53,854 bases of DNA from Bacilli bacterium (GTDB lineage: Bacteria; Bacillota_I; Bacilli_A; ML615J-28; CAG-313), in the NCBI GenBank assembly GCA_900770645.1, contig CAAGKY010000044.1, positions 1 through 53,854 of the forward strand, in the 5' to 3' direction. A program made the position numbers and the translations under genes. Positions 1 through 53,854 of the stretch are shown one piece after another. The notes under the pieces are model-generated. The model did no database searches, was not told the origin of the DNA, and was given only the letters and a program-made list of their open reading frames with translations. Each line of letters starts with the position of its first letter. The stretch's first letter is position 1.

Positions 1-407
1 AATAAGTTTAAATTAGTTAAATAAGACGATACGTATAAAACTAGTTTTGTATTATTTTCTTCTATTTCGTATATTAATTTTTGGCTTATTCCATTCGCAT
101 TAAGTATAGCTTGTGCAGCAATTAATACAGATTTTAAACTGCCTTTATATTTTAAAACTTTAGGTAAAACTGAGCAAACTGCTACTAATTGTTTACTGTC
201 ATAATTACGACGCATTTTAAAACCTAATGTTGTTGCTAATAAACTTAATGTTTGTTCATTAGTATTATCAGATAGTGGCAAATTATATAAGTTATCTGAA
301 TTAGTTTTTAAATAATTTAGAACTAAATCGTAGAGACGTCCAATAAATTGGAAGTCTCTAGATTGAGTATAATAAACTTGTGGAGTTAAATCTTGTAATT
401 TAATCAT
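1..407 (-). CDS. Baseplate protein, P2 gpI / XkdU-like (N-terminal part; gene runs off the window start)
   Basis: ATG 407-405 lies 2 nt after the TAA (412-410) of the J-like gene and the frame is open to nt 1. MIKLQDLTPQVYYTQSRDFQFIGRLYDLVLNYL...NEQTLSLLATTLGF resembles the gpI/DUF2313 family that follows baseplate J in P2/PBSX-type baseplates (by eye). Confidence 0.45.
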   Translation of the reverse strand, partial: MIKLQDLTPQVYYTQSRDFQFIGRLYDLVLNYLKTNSDNLYNLPLSDNTNEQTLSLLATTLGFKMRRNYDSKQLVAVCSVLPKVLKYKGSLKSVLIAAQAILNANGISQKLIYEIEENNTKLVLYVSSYLTNLNL

Positions 408-409
408 TT

Positions 410-3400
410 TTATACCCTCGAAGTTCTAGCTATTGTTATACCAGTTTTTAAATAATCTGTATCGATTTCTGAAATAACGAACTTATTATTAATATTATTG
501 CTATCATACCAAGTTAATGGATTTTTTAATAGTGTATCAGTAGATACAAGTGGATTTAGTTCAATTGCAGTACTAGCTAAAAGTGGAGCAGAGTAATAGA
601 AGTCTCTAGCTACTTCTCCATAATTTTTTATATCAAACATTAATTGTTCTAATTCATTTTCACATTCAGATTCTTCTCATAATTGATAGTCTAAAAGTGG
701 ATTAATATCTTTTACAATTCTTAAGTTATCAAATATAATATTTCCGCATGTTCCACATATTTCTAATCGTTGAACATTTGGATGTATTTTAATCATATTA
801 AATCCTCTTTGAAGATTAATATGATTTTGATTAGAAATTTCAGTTTCAGAATTTAATTTTTGTAAACCATCGAATCTAGAGTTCGAGTTATATGCTACAA
901 TTCTAGCTTGAGCTTTAATCTTATTAGTATCATCTGTTGTACTATAGACTTTATCATCAAAAGTTCAATAGAACATAGCTAGTCCAAATGTGTTATCTAA
1001 TAAACTTATAGATAAGTCAAAATCTTTTGTTGCTACGTTAAAACTTCCAAAACCTCCAAAATCTTCAATTAAGCTATCAAGATCTTCTTCTGAAAGTTGT
1101 CCTTCTAGTCTATCAATAAGATTTATACTATTTTTTAAGTTCTTTTTAGCAATAATAAATTCGTCATTTCCAACAAGACTTAGCTCAATAAATAAATTGC
1201 TAGAGTCAATAGCTTTGAATCTAAATAATTCATTATTTGCTCAGTTATTAAAGTTTCCAAATAAGTAGTATGGAGATTGTATTTTTATACTTGTATCCTC
1301 TCTAGGTAAGTCAACAGTTTGGTTACTTAGAACTCGATTTGAGTATAATGTTTTACCTGTATATTTTAGTTCTCCAGATGTTTCATCTTTTTTACCAATA
1401 AATACACCTTCATCACTAGTACCAAAACCAATAATCTTTATTAGATATCTATTAGATTCAGAAATAGAAAATTTCATTTGTTTGTTTTCGTCTGATTCGT
1501 CTATATTAGGTTCACCAATAAATGTATATTTAGTAAATAAACAGTCATTATTAGTATAATTATTAAGTGATAAAGTCGAACCGTCTTTAGTAACAATCTC
1601 ATTTCTTTTAGTAATTTTTAGTCTAAAATCTTTATTAGTTGTCTCGGTAAGCTCTCCATCCACAATTGCACTACTTTGTGTAACGTCTATTTCACTAACT
1701 GCTCCTAAACAAAGAGAATTAGGCTGAATAGTTAAAGGAATGATTCTATTTTCAGCATCTCTAGTAGGTTTTAATTCTATATAGCTATCTTCAAGTCTTC
1801 CAGTAGAAGCGTTAGTATAGAAGACTTTAATTTCATCACCTTCATGTAAAGTTTGAGGATTACCAGAAGACATATTAAAATCTAATCTGCTCTTAACCTT
1901 TCAGCTTAATCCAGGTATATTGATTGTTGGAAGAGTTTTACTACCTCCTTCAGCTAATGTATACTTAGCTGAGGCCACTGGAATTCATTCTGTACTGTCA
2001 ATATCTTTTTCTAAAGATACTACATCTTGATCTGCAGCTCTAGTTTCAATTATATTTCTAGACGCAAAATTCAGAGTGTCACCGCTAGTTAAAGATAAAT
2101 ATTGATTTTCAATTACATAAATAGCTTTATCATCAGAATTTAATACAAAAGTATTTCATGGAATATCAGTTTCTACTCAATTCTGTTCAACAACTTCTAT
2201 AGAAATTTTATCAGATCCAGATGAATTTCTCTTTAGTTGATTAATACCATTTTTTACTATAATCGATCCAGCGCCATAGTACGCAAAATCAGTCTTATTT
2301 TGGTCTGTATAGAATAAGTATTCTCCTTCTTTTAACGTATAAGCATTATTTCCACTTTCTGGAGCGCTTATTTCATTGTCACTATAAACTTCTTCAAATT
2401 TAAATTCTTGAGTATATGCATTTGGGTCATCACTGTTTAACATTCAATATAAATTAATAATTCCGTCAAGTTTTACTTTTGCAACTTCTCTAATTTCTAT
2501 TTGTTCATTTGTTCCTAAAGTAAACATTCCATCTGGGTTTGAAACTTCAGTAAAATTAAAACCATCTTTTTTAGATCATGAGTGCCCAGTTGTATTGTAA
2601 GTTCTACTATTAGTAAGTTCGAAATTTGGACGAATAATTGTTCCTTGACCATAATATTTATTTATAACAGTCTTTGTTTCAACATTATTTTCATCTGTAC
2701 TAGAATCTGTATAATTTATTAATAAATACTCGTTTTCACCTAGTTGATACTCTGAGTTGACCGCAATATGAGAGTTTTTACCATCTCTTCCTAATCCGTC
2801 TCTAGTATATTCTTTTTCTACGTCGCTATCATGAGTGACTGGAATATAGAAATTTTGTAAAGTAGTTGAATTATGTTGAGTATTAACTGTAGTTATTTTA
2901 GTATATCCTTGTCTTAAATTATCTCTTAGTTTTCCTGGAACACTATTTAAGTCAACACCATTATTTTTATAAATTCCACTTAGATTTAAATCATATTCAT
3001 TATTTCTTTTTCCTGTAACCCAATTATCTCAGATTCCTAAAGTAGAGCTATCAAATGGAAGAACATAGAATTCATATGTACCATTTTCGACAGAATCGAC
3101 AGAAGTAGCTTTACTATATCCGTGTTCACCTTGAGTGTCAGCAACTAAAATTTCTCCGTATTCTAATCGTTTGCTAGTAACTCAAGAATTATATATCTCT
3201 TTTCTTTTTATTGCTTCTTCTGCATTTACTATTAGAGATAGTTTTACTAAGCTACTTGAATTATTAATCATAAGCTTATAAAATTTTTCAGATGTATCTA
3301 TTTGAATAAATTTTAAGATTGTTTGCATTGTAGCCGGATAATATGGTTGCTCTTGACTTAATTGATCATTTAGATTAAAATAGTAATTTACATATGCCGG

Positions 3401-5371
3401 ATAAGTAATTGCTGTTCTTAAATTAGGCATTCTAAATTGGATTACTTGATTATCTTTTAGTTTAATTCCATCGTCTTTTTCTGTATATAGACTTTGTGAG
3501 ACTTTAAAATTTGAAACTAATTTTGAAATATATTTCGAATCATCTGGCCCATATTCAACAGAATACTCTGAAGAGTATCTAGTATCTCGATAATCATGTG
3601 CAAAACTATTATCGTAACTAAACGCTGCGATACGACCAGCTAAAATATTTCTTAATACTAATTTATTATACAGTTGTTTAGTTAAAATAGCTTCGTCTGA
3701 ATTAGAATCTTCCATACTAGCTAAAAGATACTCTGAATTATCTTTAGTACAGATCTTAGTTACTAATACTGGGTCATCTAAATTAATATCCTTAATTCTA
3801 GAGTCCGCATTTATGATTTCGTCAACTAGAAGATTATAAGGGATTTCTTCACCAAAATCGATATGTCTAGCATTAAATTTATCAAATATTCTTGTACGAA
3901 TATTTTTTAAGATTTCTCTACCTTCTTCAGAAGTAACTTTTTTATGAGTATAAACTTGTGCTTTTAGTTGTAAATAATTTTTAATGCATGTGATATCATC
4001 ATGACTAGGTGATTTTAATTTATGCGAAATAGTTTTTACTTCATTTATTTCTTTTTCAATTAAAGTATTATTAGATGCATCGTATTTAAATGAGTTATTG
4101 TATTCTCTTTCATCATTTACTCCATAAATAGTTTTAAATGGATATAAAATTAAATCACAGTGATCAATTTTATCTTTTCTTTCAGCATCTTGCAATGATT
4201 TATTTGAATAACTAATTCCATAGTCATTAAAAGAACATAAAGTAATTGCATTATTAATATCATCTCTAATATCTGAGACTATAATGTTTGAAACTAGTGG
4301 AGTAGCACTATTTTCATTCATAGTTAATTGATATATTTTATTCATATAGTCTCTACAAGTGACTAGAGTCTCAAAAGTACCAATAGTTTTTTTATAATTA
4401 TTATAAGCATCATTTAAACTCTCTGGGTCTGAACCGTTTAGCGCAGAAGTAATTTGTTTGACTCTAAAGTTTTCTTCGGACAATTTTTTAATTGGATCGT
4501 CTTCTGCAACAATATTAGTTCATTCTGCTGGAATAGTTAATTTTGATAGATTACCAGCTGATTTATTTCCGTTTACGCCAGATGTTCTAATATATTGAAT
4601 CTTTAAACCTCTTTTAATTAAATGACTAATATCTTCTGGAAATTGAACATAAGGAAGTTTACTCGTAGAATCAATACCAAATTTAAATACTCTAGACCCA
4701 GCAAAGTTAATATTTAAATTATCAACTTTTTCTCAAAGTTCTTCTTCAATATTATCACTAATATTACTAATAAAAATACCATTTTCTGCAATACCAATTT
4801 CAGGTAAAAAATATCTATTATTATCATCTAATTGTCTTAATGAAATTACATTATCTGAATCGCTTTCACATGTAACTAATTCACCTTCGATTGCATAAAC
4901 AGTTCTATAAGGTTCGTTTTTATAGATTTTAAATGATTCTAACGTAACATAGTTTATATCTTCATCTTCGTTAGTTAAATTAACAAATTTAGGAAAATAG
5001 ATACCAGTTGGAAAATCGTTTCAAGATAAGCTCTCTTGCTCTTTAAACTCAATGCGTACCTTACATGTAGCTGATTGATAGTATTTCATACTATAACCCA
5101 TCATTTCAGTTAACTTTCTCATAGATTCTTCTTGCGTGGCTGATGGCATAAATGCTTCTAAAGTATTTTTATCGATATTATAGTTTATTTTATCTGCAAT
5201 CGCTGTCAATGCTTTTAATAATACTATACCTGGGTCTGACTCATTAGTTGCATTAGGAGTCCATCTATCAGAAATCTTACTAGCTAAATCTAAAAGTTCA
5301 GCTCATATTTGATAGTAATCTTTTTTTGTAGGTGAAAGTACAACATTGTTTAATTCTTTATTTGTAATCAT
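410..5371 (-). CDS. Giant baseplate J (gp6)-like protein fused to a long C-terminal extension (1653 aa), candidate fiber/receptor-binding region
   Basis: One table-4 ORF joins track ORFs 5021-5209, 3182-4483, 2177-2443, 1241-1873 and 410-640 (same frame). I walked every codon between them: 15 in-frame TGA, no TAA/TAG. ATG 5371-5369 with GGAGAG upstream; TAA 412-410. The N-terminus ...NESDPGIVLLKALTAIADKINYNIDKNTLEAFMPSATQEESMRKL... is baseplate-J-like. I do not recognise the distal ~900 aa. Confidence 0.8.
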
Positions 5372-5382
5372 TTCTACTCTCC

Positions 5383-5781: not shown

Positions 5782-5813
5782 TAAGCTATTACCTCCCTAA
5801 TAATTTTTCAATG

Positions 5814-5827
5814 TCATATAATTTAGC
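5814..5827 (-). promoter_or_regulatory. Conserved intergenic motif copy 1 (minus strand GCTAAATTATATGA), promoter candidate for the gp25/J/gpI unit
   Basis: Lies between terminator 5867-5901 and the GGAGG/ATG of 5383-5781. The 23-nt block 5813-5835 is identical to 13404-13426. Confidence 0.5.
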
Positions 5828-7512: not shown

Positions 7513-7515
7513 ATA

Positions 7516-9856: not shown

Positions 9857-12160
9857 CTATATAATTCCATTTCCTTGTGTTGTAGACACAGTTTCATAGA
9901 TCTTAACTCGTAATGATGAAGTACCGTCTACGACATCATTCAATAGTTTATAAATACTAATTATATTATCATTTACTTCACTAAGTTTTACTTCTTCTGA
10001 TTCATCTGAAGCTGTTGCTAATTGACTCTTATTATCGTCATTAGCGTCAGACATTGTTTTTTCTTTCACGTCATTTCCGTCACTATTTCCAACTGTCATA
10101 CTTCCAGACTCAGACACACTTGCTCCACCGGCAGTACTTAATCTTGATCCATCACCACGAGTAACAGTCTTAATCTGATCAGTATTGTAGATTCCCATTG
10201 CTCCTAGTAATGGATGCATACCACTACCTAAGCCAATAGCCCCTTTTACTAGACCTGCAAGTATTTTACCCATTCCAGATAGTATGCCACCACCAACAGA
10301 CGCAACTTTCATTAGATCAGCTACAGTAGTATGTAAGTCAACAGTATTACCCATAACACTAATCATTGGAATAGGTATACCACCTACAAGCTCGTCTAAC
10401 ATATTAGAAACTCTTCATGTTGCATATAGTACTGGATTATTTGCGATTCCAGCTGCCGTAGTGTAATTGAGGTTTTCCCATAAGTTTGTCATCATTTCTC
10501 CAACACTCGTACGACCAATAGCAGTCCAAGTCATACTATTCAAATTTTTCATAGCTGAATTATAAGTTATTCCGTTTGAATTGATCGAAGAGATAGATGG
10601 AGCTAGATTTGCTACAGCTTTTAGATCTGACGCAGTTAATCCAAAGACGTTTGCGAATTGTTGTTGTACAACTTTACTTCCTTTAGATTCATTGTATATT
10701 TTTGCTAAATATTCTACCATAGCATTTAATAGTTCGTTAGTTGTATTAGCATTAAGTCCTTCACTCATTATTGATGAAATTGGTATATTAGCGCTATTCG
10801 CAGCCATGATTAATAGATTACTTGCTCCACCACTAGTTAATCCTTCTAGTTGCCCAGCTGCGATCTGTCCTAAAGTATTTCCGATGTTACTTACTGCAGT
10901 ATCAGACATACCTACAGAATAAAGTGAACCTAATCATTTTTGAACTTGATATTCAAAAGAAACAGCAGCTTCACCTGTCATCATAGACATAGCTTCTTCA
11001 ATATTAGACTTAATACCATTAGCTATTTGGCCCATATACTCAGTCGTTTCATACATATTATTTAAAAATTCATTTAATGCTGCTTCCATACCTAAACGCC
11101 CTGCAGTCGTATCTTGTTGTTGAATACGAACTAATCTCAATAACGTTCCATTAGTTGCATCAAATGTTGTAGCGATTTTGCTAGCTAATTCTTGTAAACC
11201 TGCACGTTGTTCTACGTTAAACGCAATACCTTGTTCTACCATGCTTGCGACACGCTCTGTAATTTTGCTTTGTTTAACTAGAACTGATGCTCCAGAAAAT
11301 GATGTAATATTAGCACTCATTAATTCTCAATAAGAACCAAAGAGATTTTTTTGTTTAGACCCATGCAATCTAGTATCTATTACAGACTTATACCCAGCTA
11401 CTGTTTCAATAGTGGAATTTAATTGCTTTACAAGACCCATTACAGTATCTTGTAAAGCTCGTCTTTCTTGTTTTTCAGCTTCAGCTTCAGCTTTTGCGAT
11501 TGTTTCTTCTGCTCTAGCTGTTGCCTCAGCATCAGTTTCATATCGCTCAATTCCTTCAGCGTCTACAATCTTACGTTTCTCATAGAGTTCTTTTCTAGTT
11601 TCTTCTAACTCTTCTAATTCTTCTATAGATCTTGGTCTGTCGAATGTTTTATATAACTTTGCGATACTTTTAGCATCACTCTCAAGAGTTTTTTCTCGAT
11701 CTTTTGCTTCTTTTTTTCGTCTTTTTTCTTCATCAATCGCGATTGCACGATTAGCTTCTCGTTCTTTTTTTATTCTTCAAGTAGCTAACTCTTCGAGATT
11801 TCTTTTCTCTTCTTCGAAACGTTTATCCGCTTCTTCTCTAGAAATTTCGCCTATTTCTCATAAAGCATTTATTTCTTCTTCTTTTTTCTTTTTGGCGTCT
11901 TCTAATTGTTTTGCTAATAATTGCTCATATTGATTCATATAAGCATTAGTTAGCTCATTAATCTGATCAAGCTGCATACGTTCTAAGAACTCTGCATTTT
12001 TAACCTTTAGACGATTTAATTCTTCTTCGAAACCTCTTTCATTAGCTCGTAAACGATTCAGAGCATCTATTTGAGCAGTTAAAGATGATGTTGTACCAAA
12101 ATTATCAGTACTATTTTGTTTATTAGGATTTCCTATTACATTTACACCTTGATTAATCAT
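9857..12160 (-). CDS. Tail tape measure protein (767 aa)
   Basis: Joins track ORFs 11858-12160, 10934-11320, 10415-10909 and 9857-10402 (one frame, 5 TGA, no TAA/TAG). ATG 12160-12158 after GGGAGA. Has an E/K/R-rich coiled-coil N-terminal third, then Gly/Ala/Ser-rich hydrophobic segments. Lies between the chaperone candidate and baseplate genes. Confidence 0.75.
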
Positions 12161-13456: not shown

Positions 13457-13495
13457 AAAAAAAATATCTTATCAAAAGATAAGATATTTTTTTTT
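13457..13495 (-). terminator. Rho-independent terminator after the tube gene
   Basis: Stem AATATCTTATC/GATAAGATATT (13463-13473/13478-13488) with loop AAAA, flanked by A8 and T9 runs. Begins at the tube stop codon. Confidence 0.8.
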
Positions 13496-14108
13496 ATTGA
13501 TTTTGAATTGCTGGTAAATCCATTTCAGCTCTATCGTATGCAATAGAAACTGTTAATTGACGTTTTCCATCACTTTCTCTATCGAATTCACCTTCATCGA
13601 TTCCAGTAACGAAGCATCCTTCTAGATTTCAAGTTCTAATTAATTCATAATCTTGTGTATATTCCATTAATGTACAAGTTTTCTTGTAATCTTTCATACG
13701 ACCACCTTTTCTTGTGCTTGGATTATATGCAAGATATTGTCAAGCATAAAGAATATTTTTTGTTTCCATACCAACAACGTCATCAACCACGATTGAACCA
13801 TCTTTAAATGTTGGAACACCTGCAAATTTAACAACGTCATTACCACGTCTATATTCTAAAACTTCTACTGTAAAGTTTGGTACACTTGATTTTACTACAT
13901 TTAATCTAATAGCTTCTGCAGCTTTAGCTCCATCATATAATGTTCCTTCATCAATAGTAGCTTCACCAGTATCTGGGTTAAAGTCAGGTCTATATAAATT
14001 AGTTAATTGGTTTGAATCGATTTCAAAAACGAAAAACGAATTTCTAGCAGCTTCGTAATCACGTAAGTTTGTACTAATATGAGTTGTATTTAAACTTTTA
14101 TCCATCAT
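13494..14108 (-). CDS. Tail tube protein (204 aa)
   Basis: Track ORF 13740-14108 continues through TGA 13742-13740 and 13631-13629 for 81 more codons to TAA 13496-13494. ATGATG 14108-14103 after AGGAGA. Sits directly downstream of the sheath gene. Confidence 0.7.
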
Positions 14109-41348: not shown

Positions 41349-41511
41349 CTTTATTCTTCTCACTTATCTCTTTTATCTCTTCAGCTAATGTTTCTTCTAA
41401 TACTTTTCTAATTCACTTAGAGATAGACAATCTTTCGACGAAAGCTTTTTGTCTGATTGCTTCTTTTAATGTTTCAGATATCTCTAAACTAATCATTGTT
41501 TTTTTATCCAT
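41332..41511 (-). CDS. Ribbon-helix-helix (CopG-like) protein (59 aa)
   Basis: Below the track cut-off. ATG 41511-41509 after AAAGGAGAA; TAA 41334-41332, overlapping the topA start by 17 nt. One TGA. MDKKTMISLEISETLKEAIRQKAFVERLSISKWIRKVLEETL. Confidence 0.5.
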
Positions 41512-45718: not shown

Positions 45719-47590
45719 TTATTGTTTAGCAATTAAGCTAATTCCAGTATCATCCTTAACAATATTTATTTCTGAATCTATTGAAATATCTAGACTTTCT
45801 GCATGATGCGAAATAATAAATACAGACTCAACATCTTTTAATTTATCTGAGATTAATAAGAATAATCTCGCTGTTGCAACTTTATCTAAGTTGTCAGTAA
45901 TTTCGTCTAATACTAAAATATTAGAACTATAACTAAAATATGTTTGCAGCATGTCTCTAATTGCAAATTGTGTAATAATATCAACTCTTTGTCTTTCTCC
46001 ACCAGAAAGTGAGTCAATAATTTTACCACAATAAGTAATGTCTAATGCATTACCATCTAAATAAATTTCTAATTCGTCATTGCCAAATACTGTTTTTGAA
46101 TACTCTTTAGCTTTTTTATTTATATATTCTACTATATTATACAATAAAAATCCACGAAAATCTCTTTTTACAAGAGTGTCGATTTTCTTAACAATCGCAA
46201 GTCTTTCAGATAAAACTAATAAACTTTTATCATTCATTTCTAATTGATCTGATAGCTTGCTTTTTTCTGCAGTATTAGCTTCAAGCTCTTGTAAATTATT
46301 TTTATAAATGTTGTCCCAAGTATCTTTATCGTAAATTAATTTGTCTTTTTCTCTAGTTTCTTTTACTATTAATTGAGATAAATTTGTGTGAGATAATTTT
46401 AATTCTTGATTTGCTGATCTAGTTGAAGTTATTTCAGAATTTAGTTGTTTAAGTTTTTCTGCGAATTCTTCTGAAATTTGTGCTTCATAAATAGATTTAT
46501 TAGAATTAGCTTTTTCTAATTCAGTACTAAGCTCAGATAATTGTTTATTTAATTCTTCTAATTTTTTCTCTTGCTCAAAAGTATCAGGCTTAGAAATATT
46601 TGGAAGCTTTTGACCGCATGTTGGACAAGTATCTGTGATATTTTTTAGCTTAATAATTTCATTACGCACAAAAGAAATTTCATATTCTATTTTAGTTTTT
46701 TCACTAATAATAGGATCAACTTTTTTATGGTATGCTTCTAGTAAGCATTTATTTTTTTCAGCTTTTTGGTTGTTGACGTCTAATAACTGATTATTTAATT
46801 GAGTTAAAAGATCTTCATACTTAACCATGTCTTTTTCTGCAGCTGCAAGTTGTTCAGAATAAGTATTAATTCTATTTGATATATCTTCAATTTCTTGTTC
46901 AAAATTTGGTTTTACTGCAGAATTAATTTTTTGCTCTAATGCAGAAATCGCAGAGATAATAGAATTAATTTTAGTCTTGATAATTAATGAAGAATCTTCT
47001 ATAGTTCGTTTTTGACCATTTAGAACAGCTAATCTTTCATTAATTCTATTTTTAATATCTTCAATCATAAAGTCTGATTTAGTTAATTTTTCTAATAGTT
47101 CTTTTCTTCCACTAGGACTAAATGATGAAAACTTATTTGGCATTCCTTGACCGATAATTATTGTAGATGAAATTAAGTTTTTATTTAAATCTGGTAAACA
47201 ATCACATAAGATTTTTTCAGATTCTCTAATTCCTTTTCCTGAAATATTTTCACCATTTTTAAATATCTTTAAATCAGATTTAGGTTTATGATATCTAATA
47301 ATCTTATATTCGTCTTTGTCTGCAAAAAAGTCTAGTTCAACATAACATTCATTGCTATCAACTAATACGTTCTTCAAATTAGTTGATAGTCCATTAATTG
47401 TTTCTCCAGTTAAAGCATAACAAATAGCTGTCCAAATAGTTGATTTACCACATCCATTAGACAATGCTCCATCTTTAATATAATTATTTTTTCCAGTTAC
47501 TGCACAAAAGCCTTTATCACATAAATAGACTTCAGCTTCAGCATAGCTGTTAAAATTAACTAATTTTACTTTTTTAAATTTTAATTTCAT
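45719..47590 (-). CDS. sbcC: SbcC/Rad50-like recombination ATPase (T4 gp46-like, 623 aa)
   Basis: Intact ORF. Walker A NGCGKST, zinc hook CPTCGQ within a long coiled coil, signature LSGGERQR, Walker B ILVLDEITDNLD. No TGA, 2 TGG. Confidence 0.85.
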   Translation of the reverse strand: MKLKFKKVKLVNFNSYAEAEVYLCDKGFCAVTGKNNYIKDGALSNGCGKSTIWTAICYALTGETINGLSTNLKNVLVDSNECYVELDFFADKDEYKIIRYHKPKSDLKIFKNGENISGKGIRESEKILCDCLPDLNKNLISSTIIIGQGMPNKFSSFSPSGRKELLEKLTKSDFMIEDIKNRINERLAVLNGQKRTIEDSSLIIKTKINSIISAISALEQKINSAVKPNFEQEIEDISNRINTYSEQLAAAEKDMVKYEDLLTQLNNQLLDVNNQKAEKNKCLLEAYHKKVDPIISEKTKIEYEISFVRNEIIKLKNITDTCPTCGQKLPNISKPDTFEQEKKLEELNKQLSELSTELEKANSNKSIYEAQISEEFAEKLKQLNSEITSTRSANQELKLSHTNLSQLIVKETREKDKLIYDKDTWDNIYKNNLQELEANTAEKSKLSDQLEMNDKSLLVLSERLAIVKKIDTLVKRDFRGFLLYNIVEYINKKAKEYSKTVFGNDELEIYLDGNALDITYCGKIIDSLSGGERQRVDIITQFAIRDMLQTYFSYSSNILVLDEITDNLDKVATARLFLLISDKLKDVESVFIISHHAESLDISIDSEINIVKDDTGISLIAKQ

Positions 47591-47987
47591 CAGAACTCAA
47601 CCACCCTTCAATATTATCTTTGACTATTAGCCAAAAATTATTTATATGTTTACTCATTTCAGCACGATATTCTTCATCAACCTCAGCTTTAGTTTTTGTC
47701 TTGTCTTTTATCTCAACCATATTTTCAGAAATATTATAATAATTATAAATGCAATTATAGTATGCATCATATTCTTGAACTGCTAAACATAAATAGTATA
47801 TTTTTTGATTTTGTGCAGGATCATACTCATTTTCTGTTAAGATATAGTAGTCACGCATAAATCTAATATACGTGATAAAATAGTCTAAGTTATTATTTAA
47901 ATTTTTAAAATTAAACTTATGACATTTTTTTAATTCTTTATTATAAAACTTGTATAATTCTTTAAACTGTTTTTCGAATGAACTCAT
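47574..47987 (-). CDS. Hypothetical protein (137 aa)
   Basis: Intact ORF between the SbcD and SbcC genes. ATG after GGAGAT. 2 TGG, no TGA. Confidence 0.55.
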   Translation of the reverse strand: MSSFEKQFKELYKFYNKELKKCHKFNFKNLNNNLDYFITYIRFMRDYYILTENEYDPAQNQKIYYLCLAVQEYDAYYNCIYNYYNISENMVEIKDKTKTKAEVDEEYRAEMSKHINNFWLIVKDNIEGWLSSDEIKI

Positions 47988-47996
47988 GTATATCTC

Positions 47997-49034
47997 CTAC
48001 TTACAGATTTCAGCTAATTCTGAATCTAGAAGATCGCTTCCAACGATTTTTTCTTTGCAGAATTGAATTAATCTTTGAATATGATCTGTTCCTTGTAATT
48101 CTTCTATTGCGATATCGTCAGAATCAGCTTCAAAATTTTGCTCAAGCACAACTCTTGATTCTATAATCTTACTACCAAGTTCTTGCAAAAAGTCTTTTAT
48201 TTCGAACAACATTTTTTTATTTGTCTTAATAGATAATACTGCATTTTGTTTGACGTTATTGATTTGCTCTAAATTCTCTGCTGTTTTTATTTCTAACTTA
48301 TAGAAATTTAATGAATATGGATTTTCGAAAAAATCAATCTTTAATGTGTCAGTGTCTAAGATCCAAACTCCATACTTATATCTACTAGAATCGTTTGTAA
48401 AATTGTGACCAGAAAATGAACCAACATTTAGAATTTTATCTGAAACCCATTCAGAGTTATGTAAGTGACCATTAAGAAATAGATCACAATTTTCTTCAAT
48501 TTCTTTAATTGAAAATCCAAGCGTACTTTCAAAACCACCATAGTTGATTCCAGCAATATCATTATGAGAAATAATTATATGCTTAGTACAAGAATTATCT
48601 TTAAATAAATAGCTTTTTAATTCTTGCTTGTCAGTCTCTAATACATATGGTAAAAAATGAATTTGTGTGTCACCAAAACCTTGACTGAAATTTGCTTCAG
48701 AAATAATGTGTCGATTAGGTGATTCAATTGCTTTTATTGAGCTATATCGTAAATCTGCAACACTAGATTCATGATTTCCGCAAAGAAAGTAGCATGGTAG
48801 ATTATTCCATGAGATCTTTTGTAGAGCTGTAATCTCTTCGTCATTTAATGTACTTCTATCCATAAAGTCACCAGCACAAATCATTTCTTCACAATTTTCT
48901 TTTGTTGCTAATTCATTTAACCAATTCATACTATTAATTAAAAAGTCTAATCTAGTACTAAATTTTTGTCCTCTTGATCTAACAATTGATGAATTTGTAC
49001 TCCAATGACAGTCTGAAAAAACTAATATTTTCAT
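47997..49034 (-). CDS. sbcD: SbcD/Mre11-like nuclease (T4 gp47-like, 345 aa)
   Basis: Intact ORF. Calcineurin-like motifs FSDCHW, GDFMDR, GNHE, SHND, GHLH. 5 TGG, no TGA. Confidence 0.85.
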   Translation of the reverse strand: MKILVFSDCHWSTNSSIVRSRGQKFSTRLDFLINSMNWLNELATKENCEEMICAGDFMDRSTLNDEEITALQKISWNNLPCYFLCGNHESSVADLRYSSIKAIESPNRHIISEANFSQGFGDTQIHFLPYVLETDKQELKSYLFKDNSCTKHIIISHNDIAGINYGGFESTLGFSIKEIEENCDLFLNGHLHNSEWVSDKILNVGSFSGHNFTNDSSRYKYGVWILDTDTLKIDFFENPYSLNFYKLEIKTAENLEQINNVKQNAVLSIKTNKKMLFEIKDFLQELGSKIIESRVVLEQNFEADSDDIAIEELQGTDHIQRLIQFCKEKIVGSDLLDSELAEICK

Positions 49035-49074
49035 ATCTTCATACCTCCAATTTATATATTAATTTATATACTAT

Positions 49075-49083
49075 ATTATACAA
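49075..49083 (-). promoter_or_regulatory. TTGTATAAT element (-10-like) upstream of sbcD
   Basis: Minus strand TTATTGTATAATATAGTATA, 40 nt upstream of ATG 49034 and directly after terminator 49094-49125. Confidence 0.3.
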
Positions 49084-49093
49084 TAAATAAATT

Positions 49094-49125
49094 AAAAAGT
49101 AGCTTATTTTAACAAGCTACTTTTA
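49094..49125 (-). terminator. Rho-independent terminator after 49129-49704
   Basis: Stem AGTAGCTT/AAGCTACT (49098-49105/49114-49121), loop ATTTTAAC, with flanking A5/T4 runs. Confidence 0.7.
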
Positions 49126-49128
49126 AAA

Positions 49129-49704
49129 TTAATTCAAATAATCTACTGCTAATTCTGCCATCGTAACTAATGTTACTAATTTATAAGTTTTTCTAATATT
49201 AAAATTTTCAATATTAGAATTAGTACTAGAGTATAAAATAGCTTCAACTAATTCATCATTATTTAGATCAATAAATTTTTTAGCTATCATATATGAACTA
49301 AAACTAATATCACCAAAAATAGGTCTAACATCTTTTGTTCGGTAAGATAATATAGATTCCCATTGATTAGTTACTTCATTTTTTACATTTTTTAAATATG
49401 GCTCATACAATTCTGCTCTATATAAATCCTTGAATAGCGCAACTTTTAAAATATCTTGTAATGAATATCTATCTGGACAATATACATCACATAATTTTTT
49501 TAATTCTTCAAATAATCTAATAGTGTGGTCGCATAAACTTCCCTTATAAGAGTATGTTTGATAATTATTATATGGCTTATTAAAATAATCAACTCTTTCA
49601 CTAATAAGATATTTAGTTAGTGCGGTTAAGTCAATATTTAGATTAACTAATAAAGAAATAAATTTACTCTTATTCTCTAAAATTTGGTCTTCAGTTAACA
49701 TCAT
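49129..49704 (-). CDS. Hypothetical protein, weak HD-superfamily resemblance (191 aa)
   Basis: Intact ORF. ATGATG after AAGGAGG. GSLCDHTIRL and VALFKDLYRAE loosely recall the H...HD motifs, with Lys in place of the second His. Confidence 0.3.
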   Translation of the reverse strand: MMLTEDQILENKSKFISLLVNLNIDLTALTKYLISERVDYFNKPYNNYQTYSYKGSLCDHTIRLFEELKKLCDVYCPDRYSLQDILKVALFKDLYRAELYEPYLKNVKNEVTNQWESILSYRTKDVRPIFGDISFSSYMIAKKFIDLNNDELVEAILYSSTNSNIENFNIRKTYKLVTLVTMAELAVDYLN

Positions 49705-49726
49705 TTTTCCTCCTTATTTTTTTTTA

Positions 49727-49918
49727 TTATTTATTAGTTTTATCCCAAACTTTACTAATAACTTCAGATAATGCAGCTAATAACTTAATATTTTCGTCAG
49801 ATAATTCAGTAATCTCTTCTTCTTCAAATGCTTTATTGATGTCTCCAATTATTTTTCCAGCGCGAGTTAAGCTTGAAACTTCTTCTTCTGATAAATTTGC
49901 AATCTTTCTAATTATCAT
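49727..49918 (-). CDS. Hypothetical small protein (63 aa)
   Basis: Intact ORF. ATG after AAGGAGAA. Confidence 0.45.
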   Translation of the reverse strand: MIIRKIANLSEEEVSSLTRAGKIIGDINKAFEEEEITELSDENIKLLAALSEVISKVWDKTNK

Positions 49919-49933
49919 AATATTCTCCTTTTT

Positions 49934-50542
49934 TTATTTTAAATGTAAGCCAAAAAATTCTTCTAATTCAGTTTGGTTCATATCAAAAAATCTTTCAGGT
50001 AAGCCATATGTTTTTTCAAGTTCTCTAATCGATTTACAGAAATCAAACACGTTTATTTCCTGACTTCCAATTTGTCGAATTAGCGCATTACCTCCAAACT
50101 CATAATTAATTAAATATTTGGCATTATGCGCATGACTAGTGTCAAAACTATTGTGCTTAACGTCATACGTTTCATTATTCTTATCTTTAAAATCTGCGAT
50201 TGGTTTACCTTCTCCAGAATGAAAATATTTACTATTTTCGTCTATTCATTGTAGAGATAAGTCTTTTCCACGAGTAGAATTTTTGATTTCAGTCTCTTCT
50301 AAGAAAGCTCTTCCAAAAAGCTTAAAAATTCTAACTAATCAATTACTATGATCGTCTACTCCGGTCGAATAGTATTCATATGTTGGTATAGATGCTTCAA
50401 TTTTTTTGAGTTCATCTAAATAATTTTTTCAATCAACTCAATTATTCTTCAATATTTCTTCTCTATTTTTATTAAAATATTCAACTGTTAAAAATATTTC
50501 TTTTCAAGAGATTTTATTATTTTCCAAAACTATTTTCTCCAT
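49934..50542 (-). CDS. Hypothetical protein (202 aa)
   Basis: Invisible in the track because of 6 in-frame TGA with no TGG. ATG 50542-50540, TAA 49936-49934, both ends in one frame. No convincing RBS; the TTGTATTAT element lies only 23 nt upstream. Confidence 0.45.
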
Positions 50543-50565
50543 TTTACTATAGAATCTTATATAAT

Positions 50566-50574
50566 ATAATACAA
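50566..50574 (-). promoter_or_regulatory. TTGTATTAT element (-10-like)
   Basis: Directly after terminator 50584-50615 and upstream of 49934-50542. Confidence 0.3.
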
Positions 50575-50583
50575 TAAGTTATT

Positions 50584-50615
50584 AAAAAATAGCACCTAAG
50601 AGGTGCTATTTTTTA
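50584..50615 (-). terminator. Rho-independent terminator after the bS21 gene
   Basis: GC-containing stem ATAGCACCT/AGGTGCTAT (50589-50597/50601-50609), loop AAG, flanked by A6/T6. Overlaps the TAA 50615-50613. Confidence 0.85.
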
Positions 50616-50831
50616 ATATTGTCTTCTGTTTTTGTTCTTTTTACGAAGTCTTTTTTGAGCTTCTTCTGATTTCTCACGTCTTTTTACTGACTTAGATTTA
50701 AAATATTCACGTTTTTTGCATTCTTGAATAATGTTGTCATTAAAAACTTGTTTCTTAAATCGTCTAAGAGCTACGTCTAATGCTTCTCTTTCTCCAGTAT
50801 TTTTATCTACATATAAAACAACTTTAGCCAT
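50613..50831 (-). CDS. rpsU: Ribosomal protein bS21 homologue (72 aa)
   Basis: Intact ORF after AAGGAGGAGG. ...[52 protein letters not shown] aligns by eye with bacterial S21 (E. coli ...[44 protein letters not shown]). Confidence 0.85.
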   Translation of the reverse strand: [72 protein letters not shown]

Positions 50832-51762
50832 TATTTTTCACCTCCTCCTTTATTTTGTTATGATAATCCTCTAAAATTTGCGAATGTTTATCTAATCCTT
50901 CTCAATGATATTCTACTTTTCCAAGATCTGATTTGTTTCTAGTATCTCGTTGCCACTTACAAAAATATGGACATAAATATTTTCCTTCTTTTTTAGCATC
51001 AGGATTTGTTGCGCAGAATTCGCACCAGTTACAAAGTGGACTTGGAGAAGGTTCAAAGTTTTGTTGAGATATTCCATCAAAAATTTTTTCTATTTTATCT
51101 GTACCACGCTTCATATAGCCCTTAGTTCCAGCTGATTGAGTTAAATCACATAACGGTAATTGATACTCACAAGAAATTTGTTCAGGCGAACAATTAAATA
51201 TTTGTTGAACAGCTAGATTATAGATTACGAACTGCAATGGTGTAGTTAACTTATCTTTTTCTAATGGGACAGCGAAAGTTTTTATATCTTGAATTAAATA
51301 TTTATTCTCATTTTTGTCATAAAAGACTCTGTCTATAAATCCATTAAAAAGTTTATTTCAAAATTCGAAATTAAATTTTTGTTCAACTCCAACTAATTCT
51401 AGATTTGGGTTATCTCGCATAAACTGTTCTAGTTTATAGATTCCTTCTTCTAAATAGTAATAAGTTTTATTTTCATATGTTCTATCAGATTTGTCTAATT
51501 CATAAAAATCTTTAGAGTATTTTCTCTGTATCTCACTCAATTTTACGATAATATTATTCTTTAATTTTGTATAGTCGATTGGCTCATTATTAGTAATATT
51601 TTTTGCAATAGTCTCCTCTGTTTCGTGAATTAATGTTCCAAACTCAGTTGCAATAGAGCTATTGAAAATATAATTTCCATCGACATATTTTAATTTATAT
51701 TTGAATGGGCATTGTATATACGTGTCTAATTTAGAATACGAAAATTTTTCAATATTAGCCAT
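50824..51762 (-). CDS. PD-(D/E)XK nuclease, Cas4/RecB-like with Cys cluster (312 aa)
   Basis: Joins track ORFs 51358-51762 and 50902-51237 via TGA 51360-51358, then reads through TGA 50904-50902 for 25 more codons to TAA 50826-50824. N-terminal ...YIQCPFKYKL plus C-terminal CNWCEFC...CPYFC form the four-Cys pattern of Cas4-type nucleases. Confidence 0.6.
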
Positions 51763-51850
51763 TATCTATCACCTCCAAAATGTATTTTGGAACCCATAGG
51801 AGCTCCAGGATGAACTTTCCATACTTAGCTATATAGATTTATTTATTAGA

Positions 51851-52759
51851 TTAAAAATTCAATAGAGAGCAAATTATGAACTCATTTAATTCTTTCTTAT
51901 CAAGGTCTAGTTTTCCTAGTTTTAGTTGTTTATCTAAACTAGTTAAAAATTTTAAAGAATTTATAACAGTTTCTTCAGAAATGTCTCGATAATAATACTT
52001 AATAGCATTAACTTGCTTAGGAGTCATTTTTAATTGCTCTACAGTTAATCCACTATTAAAGTTTATGAACAATATTTTTTTATAATTACTAATTAGTAGT
52101 CCAACTAATGAAAAAGGATCAATATCAACGGTGTTGATATGCTGTAGATAATCTGATATTACTAGTTTGTTTCGTTTTAAAATCGCTTCACTAAGACTAA
52201 AAGAAGAAATTTTGTATAAATCAGTATTTTCGTCATATTTTAACTCATTTAAAACTTCTCGTTGTTTATTCCCAGAATATAATCTAATCTTGTCTAGCTC
52301 ATTTTCAATTCGATAAATATCTCCACCAGTTACTTCATATAACCAATTAATTTCTTCATCTTCTAGATTCTTACATACTACTTTCATAAAATCTTTAATT
52401 TGCCAATCTACTAGTTTTGGAATTTTTACAACATACTCAGACAATTGACTTTCAATTTTCTTATCTACTTTATTGCAAATAATGATATTATTTTTAAACT
52501 GAGAATAGTCATTATAAAAAAGATCAAAGACTTCAGTTTTTAAAATATACAAAGTATTTGAAAAATCAAAAACTAATGAGAGTGCTGAATTATCTTGATT
52601 AATTAATTCTTCAACATACTTTTCTTGACAATGTCTGTTTTGGCAGATTTTAGCGATATATTGATTAGCTATAAAAAAATTGTCTTCGCAAACTAGAACT
52701 AAAAAATCATCAGATAATGAATTATTTAAAATATTTTCCTTTAATTTTTTAATATCCAT
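51851..52759 (-). CDS. Clamp-loader small subunit / delta-like (gp62-like position, 302 aa)
   Basis: Intact ORF. TAATG overlap with the AAA+ clamp-loader gene. Function inferred from position next to the gp44-like gene. 2 TGG, no TGA. Confidence 0.45.
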   Translation of the reverse strand: MDIKKLKENILNNSLSDDFLVLVCEDNFFIANQYIAKICQNRHCQEKYVEELINQDNSALSLVFDFSNTLYILKTEVFDLFYNDYSQFKNNIIICNKVDKKIESQLSEYVVKIPKLVDWQIKDFMKVVCKNLEDEEINWLYEVTGGDIYRIENELDKIRLYSGNKQREVLNELKYDENTDLYKISSFSLSEAILKRNKLVISDYLQHINTVDIDPFSLVGLLISNYKKILFINFNSGLTVEQLKMTPKQVNAIKYYYRDISEETVINSLKFLTSLDKQLKLGKLDLDKKELNEFIICSLLNF

Positions 52760-53556
52760 TATCTAATTGCCTCCTTTAATTCTAGTAAAAAATTAATCAT
52801 AAAATTCTCTTTATTTAAAGACTTAATTTGTAAATCTTTAATATAATTAGATGTAAATAAATAAATTTTTAGTGCTAACTCTGATTGGTCAAATAAATAT
52901 TTTTCAAATGCACAATGAAGCAGCATATTAAAAAACATTTTAAAATCATACTTATCATAATCTTCTTTATAATTAATCTTAGCAGAAATAGATGTAGTAT
53001 TTGCAATAGATGCGTAGGTCAATTTATTAACAATATTTGTGCATAATGAATATAATTCATCAAGTCTATTGGTGTCCAAATCTATAATTGCGCCTGGAGT
53101 TTTTGCAACAGCATAAACTAAATCCGTAATTGGATAATTTGTTTGCCATTCTAGTTCTTGTAATTGCTCCTTAGTATATGGTTCTAATCTATATTTTATA
53201 CATCTATTTAAAATAGTATCTAATATTCCAATTTCAGATTCAGCTATTAAAGTGATATACACATTTAAACTTGGTTCCTCAATTAGTTTTAAAAATTGAT
53301 TTTGCTGTTTTTCAGTAAACTCATTTACGTCAATTAAATAAATTTTTTTACTAATTGATTGTTGGTACTCAATTATTTTTTCTGAGTCTATTTTTTCAGA
53401 TACGTAAACAACTTCTAAATCTAATCTATCTGCTAGATTTTTAATAAGTGTCTTTCTACCACTTCCTGTTGGTCCTAAAAATAGAAGACTTTTAGGTAAA
53501 GTATCTAATGAATAATTGTTTAGTTTTTCAATTAGTTTAGTTTGTCCAATTAACAT
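52759..53556 (-). CDS. AAA+ clamp-loader subunit (gp44 / DnaX-HolB-like, 265 aa)
   Basis: Intact ORF. Walker A GPTGSGRKT, Walker B-like IYLIDVNEF, sensor-1 region ITLIAES, then ILNRC (SRC-type motif). Confidence 0.7.
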   Translation of the reverse strand: MLIGQTKLIEKLNNYSLDTLPKSLLFLGPTGSGRKTLIKNLADRLDLEVVYVSEKIDSEKIIEYQQSISKKIYLIDVNEFTEKQQNQFLKLIEEPSLNVYITLIAESEIGILDTILNRCIKYRLEPYTKEQLQELEWQTNYPITDLVYAVAKTPGAIIDLDTNRLDELYSLCTNIVNKLTYASIANTTSISAKINYKEDYDKYDFKMFFNMLLHCAFEKYLFDQSELALKIYLFTSNYIKDLQIKSLNKENFMINFLLELKEAIR

Positions 53557-53569
53557 TTGATCACCCTAT

Positions 53570-53854
53570 CTAATTTTTAGCTATGTCTAATAACATTACA
53601 ATAATTGTAGTCTTATAATTTAGATCATATCTAATGTTTGATTTTATTTCTAAAATTTTTGAAGCTAGATCAGTAAAATACTCAGTATTAGAAGTATTTA
53701 CAGTAAATTGGACAACAGCATTGTTCTCTGCAGCCAAATAGTTTGGAATGCTTGTTAAATTAATATCTTTAAAAATAGAAAATTTAGCTAGATCTAAAAC
53801 AAACGATAAGTATAAATTTATAAAATTCTTTAAATCTTGTCCTTCGTTGAATAG
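53570..53854 (-). CDS. Sliding-clamp candidate (gp45-like position), C-terminal 94 aa only
   Basis: Frame is open from the window end to TAG 53572-53570. Lies directly upstream of the clamp-loader pair. Assignment is from synteny only. Confidence 0.3.
   Translation of the reverse strand, partial: LFNEGQDLKNFINLYLSFVLDLAKFSIFKDINLTSIPNYLAAENNAVVQFTVNTSNTEYFTDLASKILEIKSNIRYDLNYKTTIIVMLLDIAKN

What the first reader, a model, noticed from the sequence alone, without database searches (positions are those of the whole stretch)
1..53854. In-frame TGA is read as Trp, so the standard-code ORF track fragments most genes
About 35 of ~55 genes carry in-frame TGA. Neighbouring track ORFs share a frame and are separated only by TGA. 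For example, 410-640, 1241-1873, 2177-2443, 3182-4483 and 5021-5209 fuse into one 4962-nt ORF with 15 TGA and no TAA/TAG. Sheath, tube, tape measure, portal and TerL behave the same way, and I walked these junctions codon by codon. Several genes (21254-22003, 34250-34822, 49934-50542) are invisible in the track for this reason. The TGA at 41036-41034 sits in the Toprim motif DPDREGEAIA-[TGA]-SL. Type IA topoisomerases have a conserved Trp there (E. coli DREGEAIAWH), which favours table 4 (Trp) over table 25 (Gly). TAA and TAG both terminate genes.
Basis: partly seen in the sequence, partly recalled or inferred. Interest (0 to 1): 0.8.

Follow-up and report, generated by a model that had tools for sequence, protein, structure and literature searches.

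The report
Phage fragment reads TGA as tryptophan
This 54-kb piece of a large tailed phage uses the stop codon TGA as a tryptophan codon in two thirds of its genes, which is a real but already described kind of phage genetic-code change.

Summary
With TGA as a stop the window gives 79 short ORFs and 70% coding density. With TGA as sense it gives 50 complete genes, all on the minus strand, at 94% density. 33 genes carry 112 in-frame TGA; all genes end in TAA or TAG.

TGA means Trp, not Gly. Standard-code relatives have Trp as the majority residue at 46 of 72 testable TGA columns, against 16 of 26 for the window's own TGG columns. The closest standard-code relative has TGG at 28 of 37. A 90%-identical relative swaps TGA and TGG. 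The TopA TGA aligns with Trp in five solved structures.

The window is part of a rumen/gut-type myovirus clade with contigs up to about 230 kb, in which standard-code and TGA-recoded lineages are interleaved. TGA dominates virion genes (77 TGA:17 TGG). It is avoided in annotated replication genes (4:24) and absent from the capsid gene in all 46 relatives.

This fits the published model of a phage-driven code switch on a standard-code Firmicutes host. No suppressor tRNA lies in the window, but recoded relatives encode tRNA(UCA). This is a new member of a known kind.

In passing, many recoded phages carry UCA tRNAs with an extra arm that copies the Trp anticodon loop.

The parts
1..53854 (-). 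Fragment of a large myovirus genome. It holds 50 complete genes plus 2 cut at the ends, all on the minus strand, GC 29%, with TGA used as a sense codon.
   Evidence: Coding density is 0.698 under table 11 and 0.933-0.943 with TGA as sense. Both ends cut genes. An ENA contig of 67 kb is 100% identical over 42759-53854 and runs 27.5 kb further.
410..5371 (-). Baseplate/tail-fibre protein of 1653 aa, with 15 TGA and 3 TGG. Table 11 fragments it into five ORFs.
   Evidence: Homologues are found in IMG/VR and metagenomes. L202, at 90% identity, keeps TGA at 13 of the 14 aligned positions and has TGG at the other.
9857..12160 (-). Tape-measure-like protein, 5 TGA and 2 TGG.
Evidence: Codon counts.
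13494..14108 (-). Tail tube (T4 gp19-like), 2 TGA. Both align with W in standard-code relatives.
   Evidence: Pfam PF06841; column test.
14126..15781 (-). Tail sheath, 4 TGA and 0 TGG.
   Evidence: Pfam PF17482, a weak hit. All 4 TGA align with W in L252.
21254..22003 (-). Head-tail adaptor, 5 TGA and 0 TGG. It is not visible as an ORF under table 11.
   Evidence: PHROG 211. All 5 TGA align with W in L252.
22131..23453 (-). Major capsid protein, 0 TGA and 4 TGG. It is TGA-free in all 46 relatives, including the recoded ones.
25928..25930 (-). The one clear exception: the TGA at codon 47 of gene 25598-26068 aligns with Gly (GGN) in 33 of 34 relatives.
26095..28038 (-). Portal protein, 4 TGA, all aligned with W in standard-code relatives.
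28049..30073 (-). Large terminase, 7 TGA. Five align with W, one with L and one with Y/Q.
   Evidence: tblastn against GenBank phages finds terminases at no more than 36% identity. Column test.
34250..34822 (-). Hypothetical gene with 2 TGA, not visible as an ORF under table 11.
39528..41363 (-). Type IA topoisomerase (TopA). Its single TGA at 41034-41036 lies in the Toprim motif DPDREGEAIA-X.
   Evidence: PDB search E = 8e-87; W at that column in 5 of 5 alignments. Codon verified.
45719..53556 (-). Replication/repair block: SbcC, SbcD, HD hydrolase, bS21, PD-(D/E)XK nuclease and two clamp-loader subunits. TGA:TGG is only 8:16.
   Evidence: Pfam and PHROG hits; codon counts. The next 9.7 kb of the same genome continues the pattern.
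49934..50542 (-). Hypothetical gene with 5 TGA and 0 TGG inside the replication block, not visible as an ORF under table 11.

Best explanation
The window is about a quarter of the genome of a large contractile-tailed phage in which UGA is translated as tryptophan (genetic code 4). That much is shown directly by the sequence comparisons. My probability for this part alone is about 0.97.

The rest is inferred, with a probability of about 0.75. The host is probably a standard-code Firmicutes bacterium, most likely of the Lachnospiraceae type. The phage itself changes the reading of UGA during infection through a UCA-anticodon suppressor tRNA encoded elsewhere in its genome. That tRNA would be charged with Trp and would compete with host release factor 2.

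Genes that must work before or independently of the switch keep TGG and avoid TGA. These are the core replication genes and the very highly expressed capsid gene. Virion and tail-fibre genes have drifted to the AT-favoured TGA, so they can only be completed once suppression is on. This is the late-gene gating model of Borges et al.
For: Shown:
- Coding density rises from 0.70 to 0.93-0.94 only when TGA is sense.
- Trp content is 0.25% with TGG alone and 0.92% with TGA.
- W is the majority residue at 46 of 72 TGA columns in standard-code homologues, against 16 of 26 for the window's TGG columns.
- L252 has W at 28 of 37 TGA columns.
- A 90%-identical relative swaps TGA and TGG.
- The TopA TGA aligns with W in 5 of 5 PDB structures.

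Supporting the phage-driven switch:
- On the capsid tree, standard-code lineages (GC 34-38%) and TGA-recoded lineages (GC 27-35%) are interleaved. The window's nearest neighbours on that tree and its closest large relative, L252, use the standard code.
- TGA:TGG is 77:17 in the virion block and 4:24 in annotated replication-type genes (Fisher p = 9e-11). Heterogeneity among genes has permutation p of about 5e-5.
- The capsid gene has 0 TGA in all 46 relatives.
- Recoded relatives encode tRNA(UCA): L097/L150, L234, L235 and L104.
- In the 223-kb relative, the locus holding the tRNA (L104) shows almost no coding-density gain when TGA is read as sense (0.80 to 0.83). Its structural region (L078) gains strongly (0.66 to 0.89).
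- Shine-Dalgarno motifs precede 40 of 50 genes.
- Clade contigs are binned with Lachnospiraceae MAGs, including a recoded contig with Waltera intestinalis.
- The published model and clade properties match (preprint 10.1101/2021.08.26.457843).
Against: - No tRNA, release factor or TrpRS lies in the window.
- No tRNA lies in the 9.7 kb beyond its right end in the identical ENA contig, nor in the 10 kb beyond its left end in a 91%-identical relative.
- The host link rests only on metagenomic binning and ribosome-binding-site style, not on CRISPR spacers or culture.
- The partition is not clean. Some genes in the replication region carry TGA: 49934-50542 has 5, the PD-(D/E)XK nuclease 2, and SbcC and TopA 1 each.
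- One TGA sits at an invariant Gly column.
- The capsid gene avoids TGA although it is a late gene. The gating model needs an added assumption to explain this, namely that suppression is too inefficient for a very highly expressed protein.
Confidence: 0.8

Rival explanations
1. The host itself uses code 4, like Mycoplasma or Spiroplasma, and the phage simply matches its host. No phage-borne switch or timing role is involved.
For: - The genome has very low GC (29%) and GC3 of about 15%, as code-4 bacteria do.
- No suppressor tRNA was found in the roughly 74 kb of this or a near-identical genome that could be read.
- Mollicutes belong to the same phylum as the binned hosts.
Against: - TGA use is strongly uneven: 4:24 in replication genes against 77:17 in virion genes, and 0 TGA in the capsid gene across 46 relatives. 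Uniform TGA dominance would be expected on a code-4 host with this base composition.
- Sister lineages at 72-79% capsid identity use the standard code.
- Recoded relatives carry their own tRNA(UCA).
- Clade contigs are binned with Lachnospiraceae, which are taken here to use the standard code.
- The GenBank phage search gave no hit to a Mycoplasma or Spiroplasma phage among the organisms listed.
- From general knowledge, genomes of about 200 kb are far larger than known mollicute phages.
Confidence: 0.12
2. TGA encodes glycine (code 25), as in phages of Absconditabacteria and Gracilibacteria.
For: One TGA (25928-25930) aligns with an invariant Gly in 33 of 34 relatives. A second column also has a Gly majority.
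Against: - Gly is the majority residue at only 2 of 72 TGA columns, against 46 for Trp.
- TGG-only Trp content would be an implausible 0.25%.
- TGA and TGG interchange in a 90%-identical relative.
- The Toprim column is W.
- According to Borges et al., code-25 phages carry TGA in about 90% of genes. Here the figure is 66%, and replication genes avoid it.
Confidence: 0.01
3. The TGAs are true stops or rare special events: a decayed or mis-assembled genome, leaky read-through, or selenocysteine.
For: ARAGORN labels the UCA tRNAs of relatives as 'tRNA-SeC'.
Against: - 112 in-frame TGA lie in 33 genes, with no in-frame TAA or TAG.
- The same positions are conserved as TGA or TGG across dozens of independent assemblies.
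- An independent ENA assembly is 100% identical over 11 kb.
- The UCA tRNAs have a 7/5 cloverleaf with a Trp-like acceptor, not the selC 8/5 form.
- The affected columns are Trp columns, not Cys/Sec columns.
Confidence: 0.01

Closest known systems
Alternatively coded (TGA to Trp, code 4) gut and rumen phages of Borges et al. 2021/2022, especially the large Firmicutes-infecting Jade, Sapphire and Agate clades
   Same: - Coding density is restored under code 4, and TGA aligns with Trp.
- Genomes are large: clade contigs here reach 200-238 kb, against 154-210 kb mean clade sizes in the preprint.
- The host prediction is Firmicutes-type.
- Standard and recoded members are mixed within one clade.
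- Structural genes are recoded and replication genes much less so.
- A suppressor tRNA is detectable in only some genomes (35% in their survey).
- 66% of genes carry in-frame stops, inside their 26-71% range.
   Different: - Membership of a named clade could not be tested, because their sequences are not in the collections searched.
- No RF1/TrpRS 'code-change module' was seen here.
- The major capsid gene is strictly TGA-free across the whole clade. The passages of the preprint that I read do not mention this.
Native code-4 bacteria (Mycoplasma, Spiroplasma) and their phages
   Same: The same codon reassignment (UGA = Trp) and a similarly low GC content.
   Different: In those organisms the host supplies tRNA-Trp(UCA) and lacks RF2, so TGA should be used throughout. 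Here TGA is avoided in replication genes and the capsid gene, and sister phages use the standard code.
TAG to Gln (code 15) recoding in crAss-like and Lak phages
   Same: The logic is the same: a stop codon recoded mainly in late genes, phage-encoded suppressor tRNAs, and a standard-code host.
   Different: The codon and amino acid differ, and so do the hosts (Bacteroidota). Reading TAG as sense gives no real gain here (0.727 against 0.698).
Code-25 (TGA = Gly) phages of Absconditabacteria and Gracilibacteria
   Same: TGA is a sense codon.
   Different: The amino acid is Trp, not Gly, and the share of genes with TGA is lower than the roughly 90% reported for those phages.

Membership tests
Code-4 (TGA = Trp) alternatively coded phage, criteria of Borges et al. 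| Coding density rises by more than 5-10% under code 4 relative to code 11, giving longer genes and less strand switching. | tested here: met
   Density goes from 0.698 to 0.933-0.943 and ORF count from 79 to 47-50. All genes end up on one strand.
Code-4 (TGA = Trp) alternatively coded phage, criteria of Borges et al. | In-frame TGA aligns with tryptophan in homologues. | tested here: met
   W is the majority at 46 of 72 columns, the same rate as at TGG columns. L252 has W at 28 of 37. TopA aligns with W in 5 of 5 PDB structures.
Code-4 (TGA = Trp) alternatively coded phage, criteria of Borges et al. | The sequence is a phage, with virion and packaging genes. | tested here: met
   Baseplate, tube, sheath, adaptor, protease, portal and terminase hits, and IMG/VR relatives.
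Code-4 (TGA = Trp) alternatively coded phage, criteria of Borges et al. | A phage-encoded suppressor tRNA with anticodon UCA. | tested here: inconclusive
   None in the window or in about 20 kb of flanking sequence. Present in recoded clade relatives L097, L104, L234 and L235. The rest of this genome could not be read.
Code-4 (TGA = Trp) alternatively coded phage, criteria of Borges et al. | The host uses the standard code. | not testable with these tools
   Only indirect hints exist: Lachnospiraceae bins, Shine-Dalgarno use, and standard-code sister phages.
Code-4 (TGA = Trp) alternatively coded phage, criteria of Borges et al. | The recoded codon is enriched in late (structural) genes relative to replication genes. 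| tested here: met
   77:17 against 4:24, Fisher p = 9e-11. The exception is the capsid gene, at 0:4.
Phage of a native code-4 host (mollicute phage) | TGA is the dominant Trp codon in essentially all gene classes. | tested here: not met
   Heterogeneity among genes has p of about 5e-5. Replication genes and the capsid gene use TGG.
Code-25 phage (TGA = Gly) | In-frame TGA aligns with glycine. | tested here: not met
   Gly is the majority at 2 of 72 columns.
Selenocysteine recoding | A few TGA at Cys/Sec columns, with a selC-type tRNA. | tested here: not met
   There are 112 TGA, at Trp columns. The UCA tRNAs of relatives have a 7/5 cloverleaf with a Trp-like acceptor.

The most novel reading that the evidence does not exclude
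In this phage lineage TGA-to-Trp decoding may be carried out by an unusual five-arm suppressor tRNA. It has a tRNA-Trp-like body whose anticodon arm appears duplicated. One copy carries UCA, and the other sits in the variable-arm position and keeps the Trp anticodon loop (N-U-CCA-A-A).

The clade relative L097 has such a tRNA about 7 kb past the homologue of gene 410-5371. 52 of the 104 UCA-tRNA loci found in IMG/VR are of this type, and most of those long enough to test are TGA-recoded.

The spare CCA loop could keep the host TrpRS charging a tRNA whose decoding anticodon no longer matches. I found no description of this in the papers I could search. Whether this window's own genome carries one is unknown.
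Probability: 0.3. Interest if true: 0.75.

Novelty: new member of a known kind. Interest (0 to 1): 0.35.

Why it matters
- For annotation: this contig and its relatives must be gene-called with table 4. Under table 11, two thirds of the genes are fragmented or missed.
- For biology: it adds a well-resolved example of a phage clade in which standard-code and TGA-recoded members are interleaved. Recoding tracks low GC. Core replication genes and the capsid gene are kept readable in the host's code.
- That pattern makes testable predictions about the timing and efficiency of stop-codon suppression during infection.
- The suppressor tRNAs with a second Trp-anticodon-like arm, seen in related and unrelated recoded phages, may explain how such tRNAs stay chargeable. 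They could also be useful for genetic-code engineering.

Tried and rejected
- Megablast of 20 kb of the window against GenBank phages found nothing. The best terminase hit is 36% identical, in a Bacillus phage.
- An exact look-up of the capsid protein found no record.
- Rfam searches of the window, at gathering threshold and at E up to 1, found nothing, and ARAGORN found nothing.
- Searching for the suppressor tRNA by walking outwards:
  - The right-end clamp-loader query reached nine relatives at about 42% identity, whose contig names where known are those of standard-code relatives; none has a tRNA.
  - The left-end query found tRNA arrays only in the more distant subclade.
  - A 91%-identical Logan contig and the identical ENA contig added about 20 kb of flanks without tRNAs.
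  - Further walking was blocked.
- The journal version of Borges et al. is not held, so I used the preprint.
- The plus-strand ORFs 43240-44040 and 44370-44771 were rejected as antisense artefacts of five small minus-strand genes.
- TAG or TAA recoding was rejected by the density controls.
Full report
**Observation**

The window is 53,854 bases, 29% GC, with strong strand asymmetry.
- Greedy non-overlapping ORF sets give 79 ORFs under table 11, with median 366 nt and density 0.698.
- Reading TGA as sense gives 47 ORFs, median 828 nt, density 0.933.
- The controls that free TAG or TAA instead give 0.727 and 0.796, with more and shorter ORFs.

Two plus-strand ORFs in that set (43240-44040 and 44370-44771) are hydrophobic antisense artefacts lying over five small minus-strand genes.
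- The curated set is 50 complete genes, all on the minus strand, at density 0.943.
- 33 of them carry in-frame TGA. There are 112 TGA and 43 TGG.
- 36 genes end in TAA, 14 in TAG and none in TGA.
- Further genes are cut at both window ends.

- The five table-11 ORFs between 410 and 5209 exist. They fuse into a 4962-nt ORF with 15 TGA.
- Sheath, tube, tape measure, portal and terminase carry 4, 2, 5, 4 and 7 TGA.
- The three 'invisible' genes exist under code 4.
- The codon at 41036-41034 is TGA within DPDREGEAIA-X-SLI.

**Which amino acid TGA encodes**

With TGG alone, Trp would make up 0.25% of residues. With TGA included it is 0.92%.

A capsid-protein search of IMG/VR found 52 related loci. 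Most share 65-75% capsid identity with the window, and some come from contigs up to 233 kb. Coding-density comparison shows that some of these use the standard code and others are TGA-recoded. This allows a direct test: I aligned window proteins, with X at each TGA, against the translated standard-code loci.
- 72 of the 112 TGA columns are covered by at least two distinct standard-code homologues.
- The majority residue is W in 46, L in 6, Y in 5, F in 4, G in 2 and other residues in 9.
- The window's own TGG columns give W in 16 of 26. TGA is therefore as Trp-like as TGG (first version).

Three further comparisons agree.
- The closest large relative is a 174.6-kb contig binned in a Lachnospiraceae MAG. 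Its capsid is 79% identical and it uses the standard code. It has TGG-encoded W at 28 of 37 window TGA columns.
- A 5.4-kb metagenome contig that is 90% identical in protein shows reciprocal TGA/TGG swaps.
- The single TGA of the type IA topoisomerase aligns with the conserved Trp of the Toprim motif in five of five solved structures.

Glycine (table 25) is rejected. The one clear exception is the TGA at 25928-25930, which aligns with Gly (GGN) in 33 of 34 relatives. I cannot explain it. A GGA-to-TGA change giving Gly-to-Trp is the simplest reading.

**What the sequence is**

Pfam, PHROG and PDB matches identify the following:
- T4-type baseplate proteins, tail tube and sheath;
- head-tail adaptor and head maturation protease;
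- a MoxR-like AAA ATPase with a metallopeptidase-domain protein;
- type IA topoisomerase and peptide deformylase;
- SbcC and SbcD, an HD hydrolase, a PD-(D/E)XK nuclease and clamp-loader subunits;
- ribosomal protein bS21.

The capsid and portal genes gave no family hit. They are named from their place in the head module and from strong conservation in IMG/VR phage contigs. The large terminase is named from GenBank phage terminases at up to 36% identity. Nothing in GenBank phages is close at the DNA level.

Two other assemblies extend the picture.
- An ENA contig of 67 kb is 100% identical to window 42759-53854. It continues 27.5 kb further, of which I could read 9.7 kb. That stretch holds the large clamp-loader subunit, dCMP deaminase, a RecA-like protein, the sliding clamp, a family-A polymerase fragment and a GIY-YIG endonuclease.
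- A Logan contig is 91% identical in DNA over window 1-10406 and continues into large tail-fibre genes. One of them carries 34 TGA and 3 TGG.

The window is therefore a fragment of a much larger myovirus. Relatives reach 200-238 kb.

**How it most likely works**

Four observations point to a phage-driven code switch on a standard-code host rather than to a host that itself uses code 4.

1. On a capsid tree, recoded and standard-code lineages are interleaved. Recoded lineages mostly have lower GC (27-35% against 34-38%). The window's nearest neighbours on that tree and its closest large relative, L252, use the standard code.

2. TGA use is far from uniform, although GC3 is about 15% everywhere.
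   - Heterogeneity among genes has permutation p of about 5e-5.
   - The virion block 410-30073 has 77 TGA to 17 TGG.
   - Annotated replication and early-type genes, including those in the identical ENA extension, have 4 to 24 (Fisher p = 9e-11).
   - The capsid gene has no TGA in the window or in any of 46 relatives, recoded or not.

3. Recoded relatives carry their own UCA tRNAs.
   - L097/L150 (a 230-kb contig), L234 and L235 have one about 7 kb past the homologue of gene 410-5371. It heads a tRNA array next to a ROOL RNA.
   - L104 (a 223-kb contig) has a canonical 75-nt tRNA(UCA) 7.6 kb from its bS21, nuclease and clamp-loader genes.
   - That locus gains almost nothing in coding density when TGA is read as sense (0.80 to 0.83). 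The structural region of the same contig gains strongly (0.66 to 0.89).

4. The host hints point to standard-code Firmicutes.
   - Strong Shine-Dalgarno motifs precede 40 of 50 genes.
   - Of three clade contigs found in GTDB genomes, two are binned with Lachnospiraceae. One of these is a recoded contig in a Waltera intestinalis MAG.

All of this matches the model of Borges et al. (preprint 10.1101/2021.08.26.457843). In that model, early genes are readable in the host code, a suppressor tRNA is then made, and recoded late genes become translatable.

The steps that are shown are the meaning of TGA, the uneven codon use, the mixed-code clade and the tRNAs in relatives. The steps that are inferred are the host's code, the presence of a suppressor tRNA in this particular genome, and any timing role.

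Capsid avoidance of TGA is not predicted by simple late-gene gating. My reading, which is an inference, is that suppression competes with RF2 and is too inefficient for the most abundantly made protein.

**What is missing**

The window holds no tRNA or other known RNA family. No tRNA lies in the roughly 20 kb of flanking sequence I could reach. The remaining 17.8 kb of the ENA contig and 27.6 kb of the Logan contig could not be fetched.

**Comparison with what is known, and novelty**

TGA-to-Trp recoding in large Firmicutes-infecting gut and rumen phages is published. So are mixed codes within clades and preferential recoding of structural genes. The study behind it surveyed human and animal gut microbiomes, cattle included.

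This window meets the published operational criteria. It is a new member of a known kind, not a new phenomenon. I could not test membership of a named clade (Jade, Sapphire or Agate).

**Noticed in passing: five-arm UCA tRNAs**

I searched IMG/VR for UCA tRNAs with a Trp-like anticodon stem and found 104 loci.
- 52 loci carry a 93-100-nt tRNA with a Trp-like acceptor (AGGGGC...GCCCCUG plus CCA, G73) and an extra arm.
- The extra arm has a 4-7-bp stem and a nearly invariant 7-nt loop, N-U-C-C-A-A-A. That loop is the tRNA-Trp anticodon loop.
- RNAalifold on 33 unique sequences predicts this fifth arm, with compensatory changes at three of its four consensus pairs (17, 9 and 9 sequences).
- 27 of the 38 such loci of at least 6 kb are TGA-recoded.
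- The other long-arm hits are mostly ordinary selC-type tRNAs in GC-rich contigs that are not recoded.

The spacing allows two registers. Either UCA is in the anticodon arm and CCA in the variable arm, as Rfam and ARAGORN place them, or the reverse. I therefore cannot say which loop decodes.

Two literature searches and three papers on phage suppressor tRNAs and unusual cloverleaves do not mention it. A plausible role is keeping TrpRS recognition after the decoding anticodon changed.

**Verdict**

The mechanism is most likely a phage-encoded opal suppressor acting on a standard-code host. The finding is sound but of a known kind. The tRNA lead is the part most worth following.

Noticed in passing
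L097:21545-21637, also L150, L234 and L235; 52 of the IMG/VR loci L098-L201; alignment A1: UCA-anticodon tRNAs with a Trp-like acceptor carry an extra arm whose 7-nt loop (N-U-CCA-A-A) copies the tRNA-Trp anticodon loop. The arm is supported by compensatory changes, and the tRNAs occur mostly in low-GC, TGA-recoded phage contigs. ARAGORN calls them tRNA-SeC. I found no description in the papers searched.
   Followed up: partly
window 25928-25930 (codon 47 of gene 25598-26068): This TGA aligns with an invariant Gly (GGN) in 33 of 34 relatives. It is the one clear departure from the Trp pattern and remains unexplained.
   Followed up: partly
window 22131-23453 and capsid genes in L001-L052: The major capsid gene has no TGA and keeps 4 TGG (fewer in a few relatives) in the window and in all 46 relatives, including heavily recoded genomes. 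This suggests selection against TGA in the most highly expressed late gene.
   Followed up: yes
window 50613-50831, 41538-42263, 39528-41363: The phage encodes ribosomal protein bS21, a peptide deformylase and a type IA topoisomerase. The first two are translation-related host-like genes. The bS21 gene has no Trp codon, and the deformylase has one TGG and no TGA.
   Followed up: no
L097:22567-23184: A full-length ROOL RNA (Rfam RF03087, 252 bits) lies between the UCA tRNA and the tRNA array of a recoded 230-kb relative.
   Followed up: no
L261 and L262 (ENA ERZ27229657:k119_24880, 67,058 bp); L255 (Logan SRR32918216_3613, 60,447 bp): An independent assembly is 100% identical to window 42759-53854 and extends 27.5 kb to the right. 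A 91%-identical contig extends 38 kb to the left. Together they could give most of the missing genome.
   Followed up: partly
window 43240-44040 and 44370-44771 (plus strand): Long plus-strand ORFs that appear only under code 4 are antisense artefacts over five small minus-strand genes (43082-44812). This is a caution for automatic table-4 gene calling in AT-rich sequence.
   Followed up: yes
window 35807-37090: A metallopeptidase-domain protein contains a Gly/Gln/Ser-rich low-complexity stretch of about 170 residues (GQQGQ-type repeats, with a weak collagen-repeat hit). It sits next to a MoxR-like AAA ATPase.
   Followed up: no
L120, L155, L198 (IMG/VR): Three contigs with a different long-arm UCA tRNA show very large gains when TGA is read as sense (density about 0.41-0.44 to 0.88-0.90 for the two long enough to judge). 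They may be code-25 or other heavily recoded phages and are unrelated to the window.
   Followed up: no
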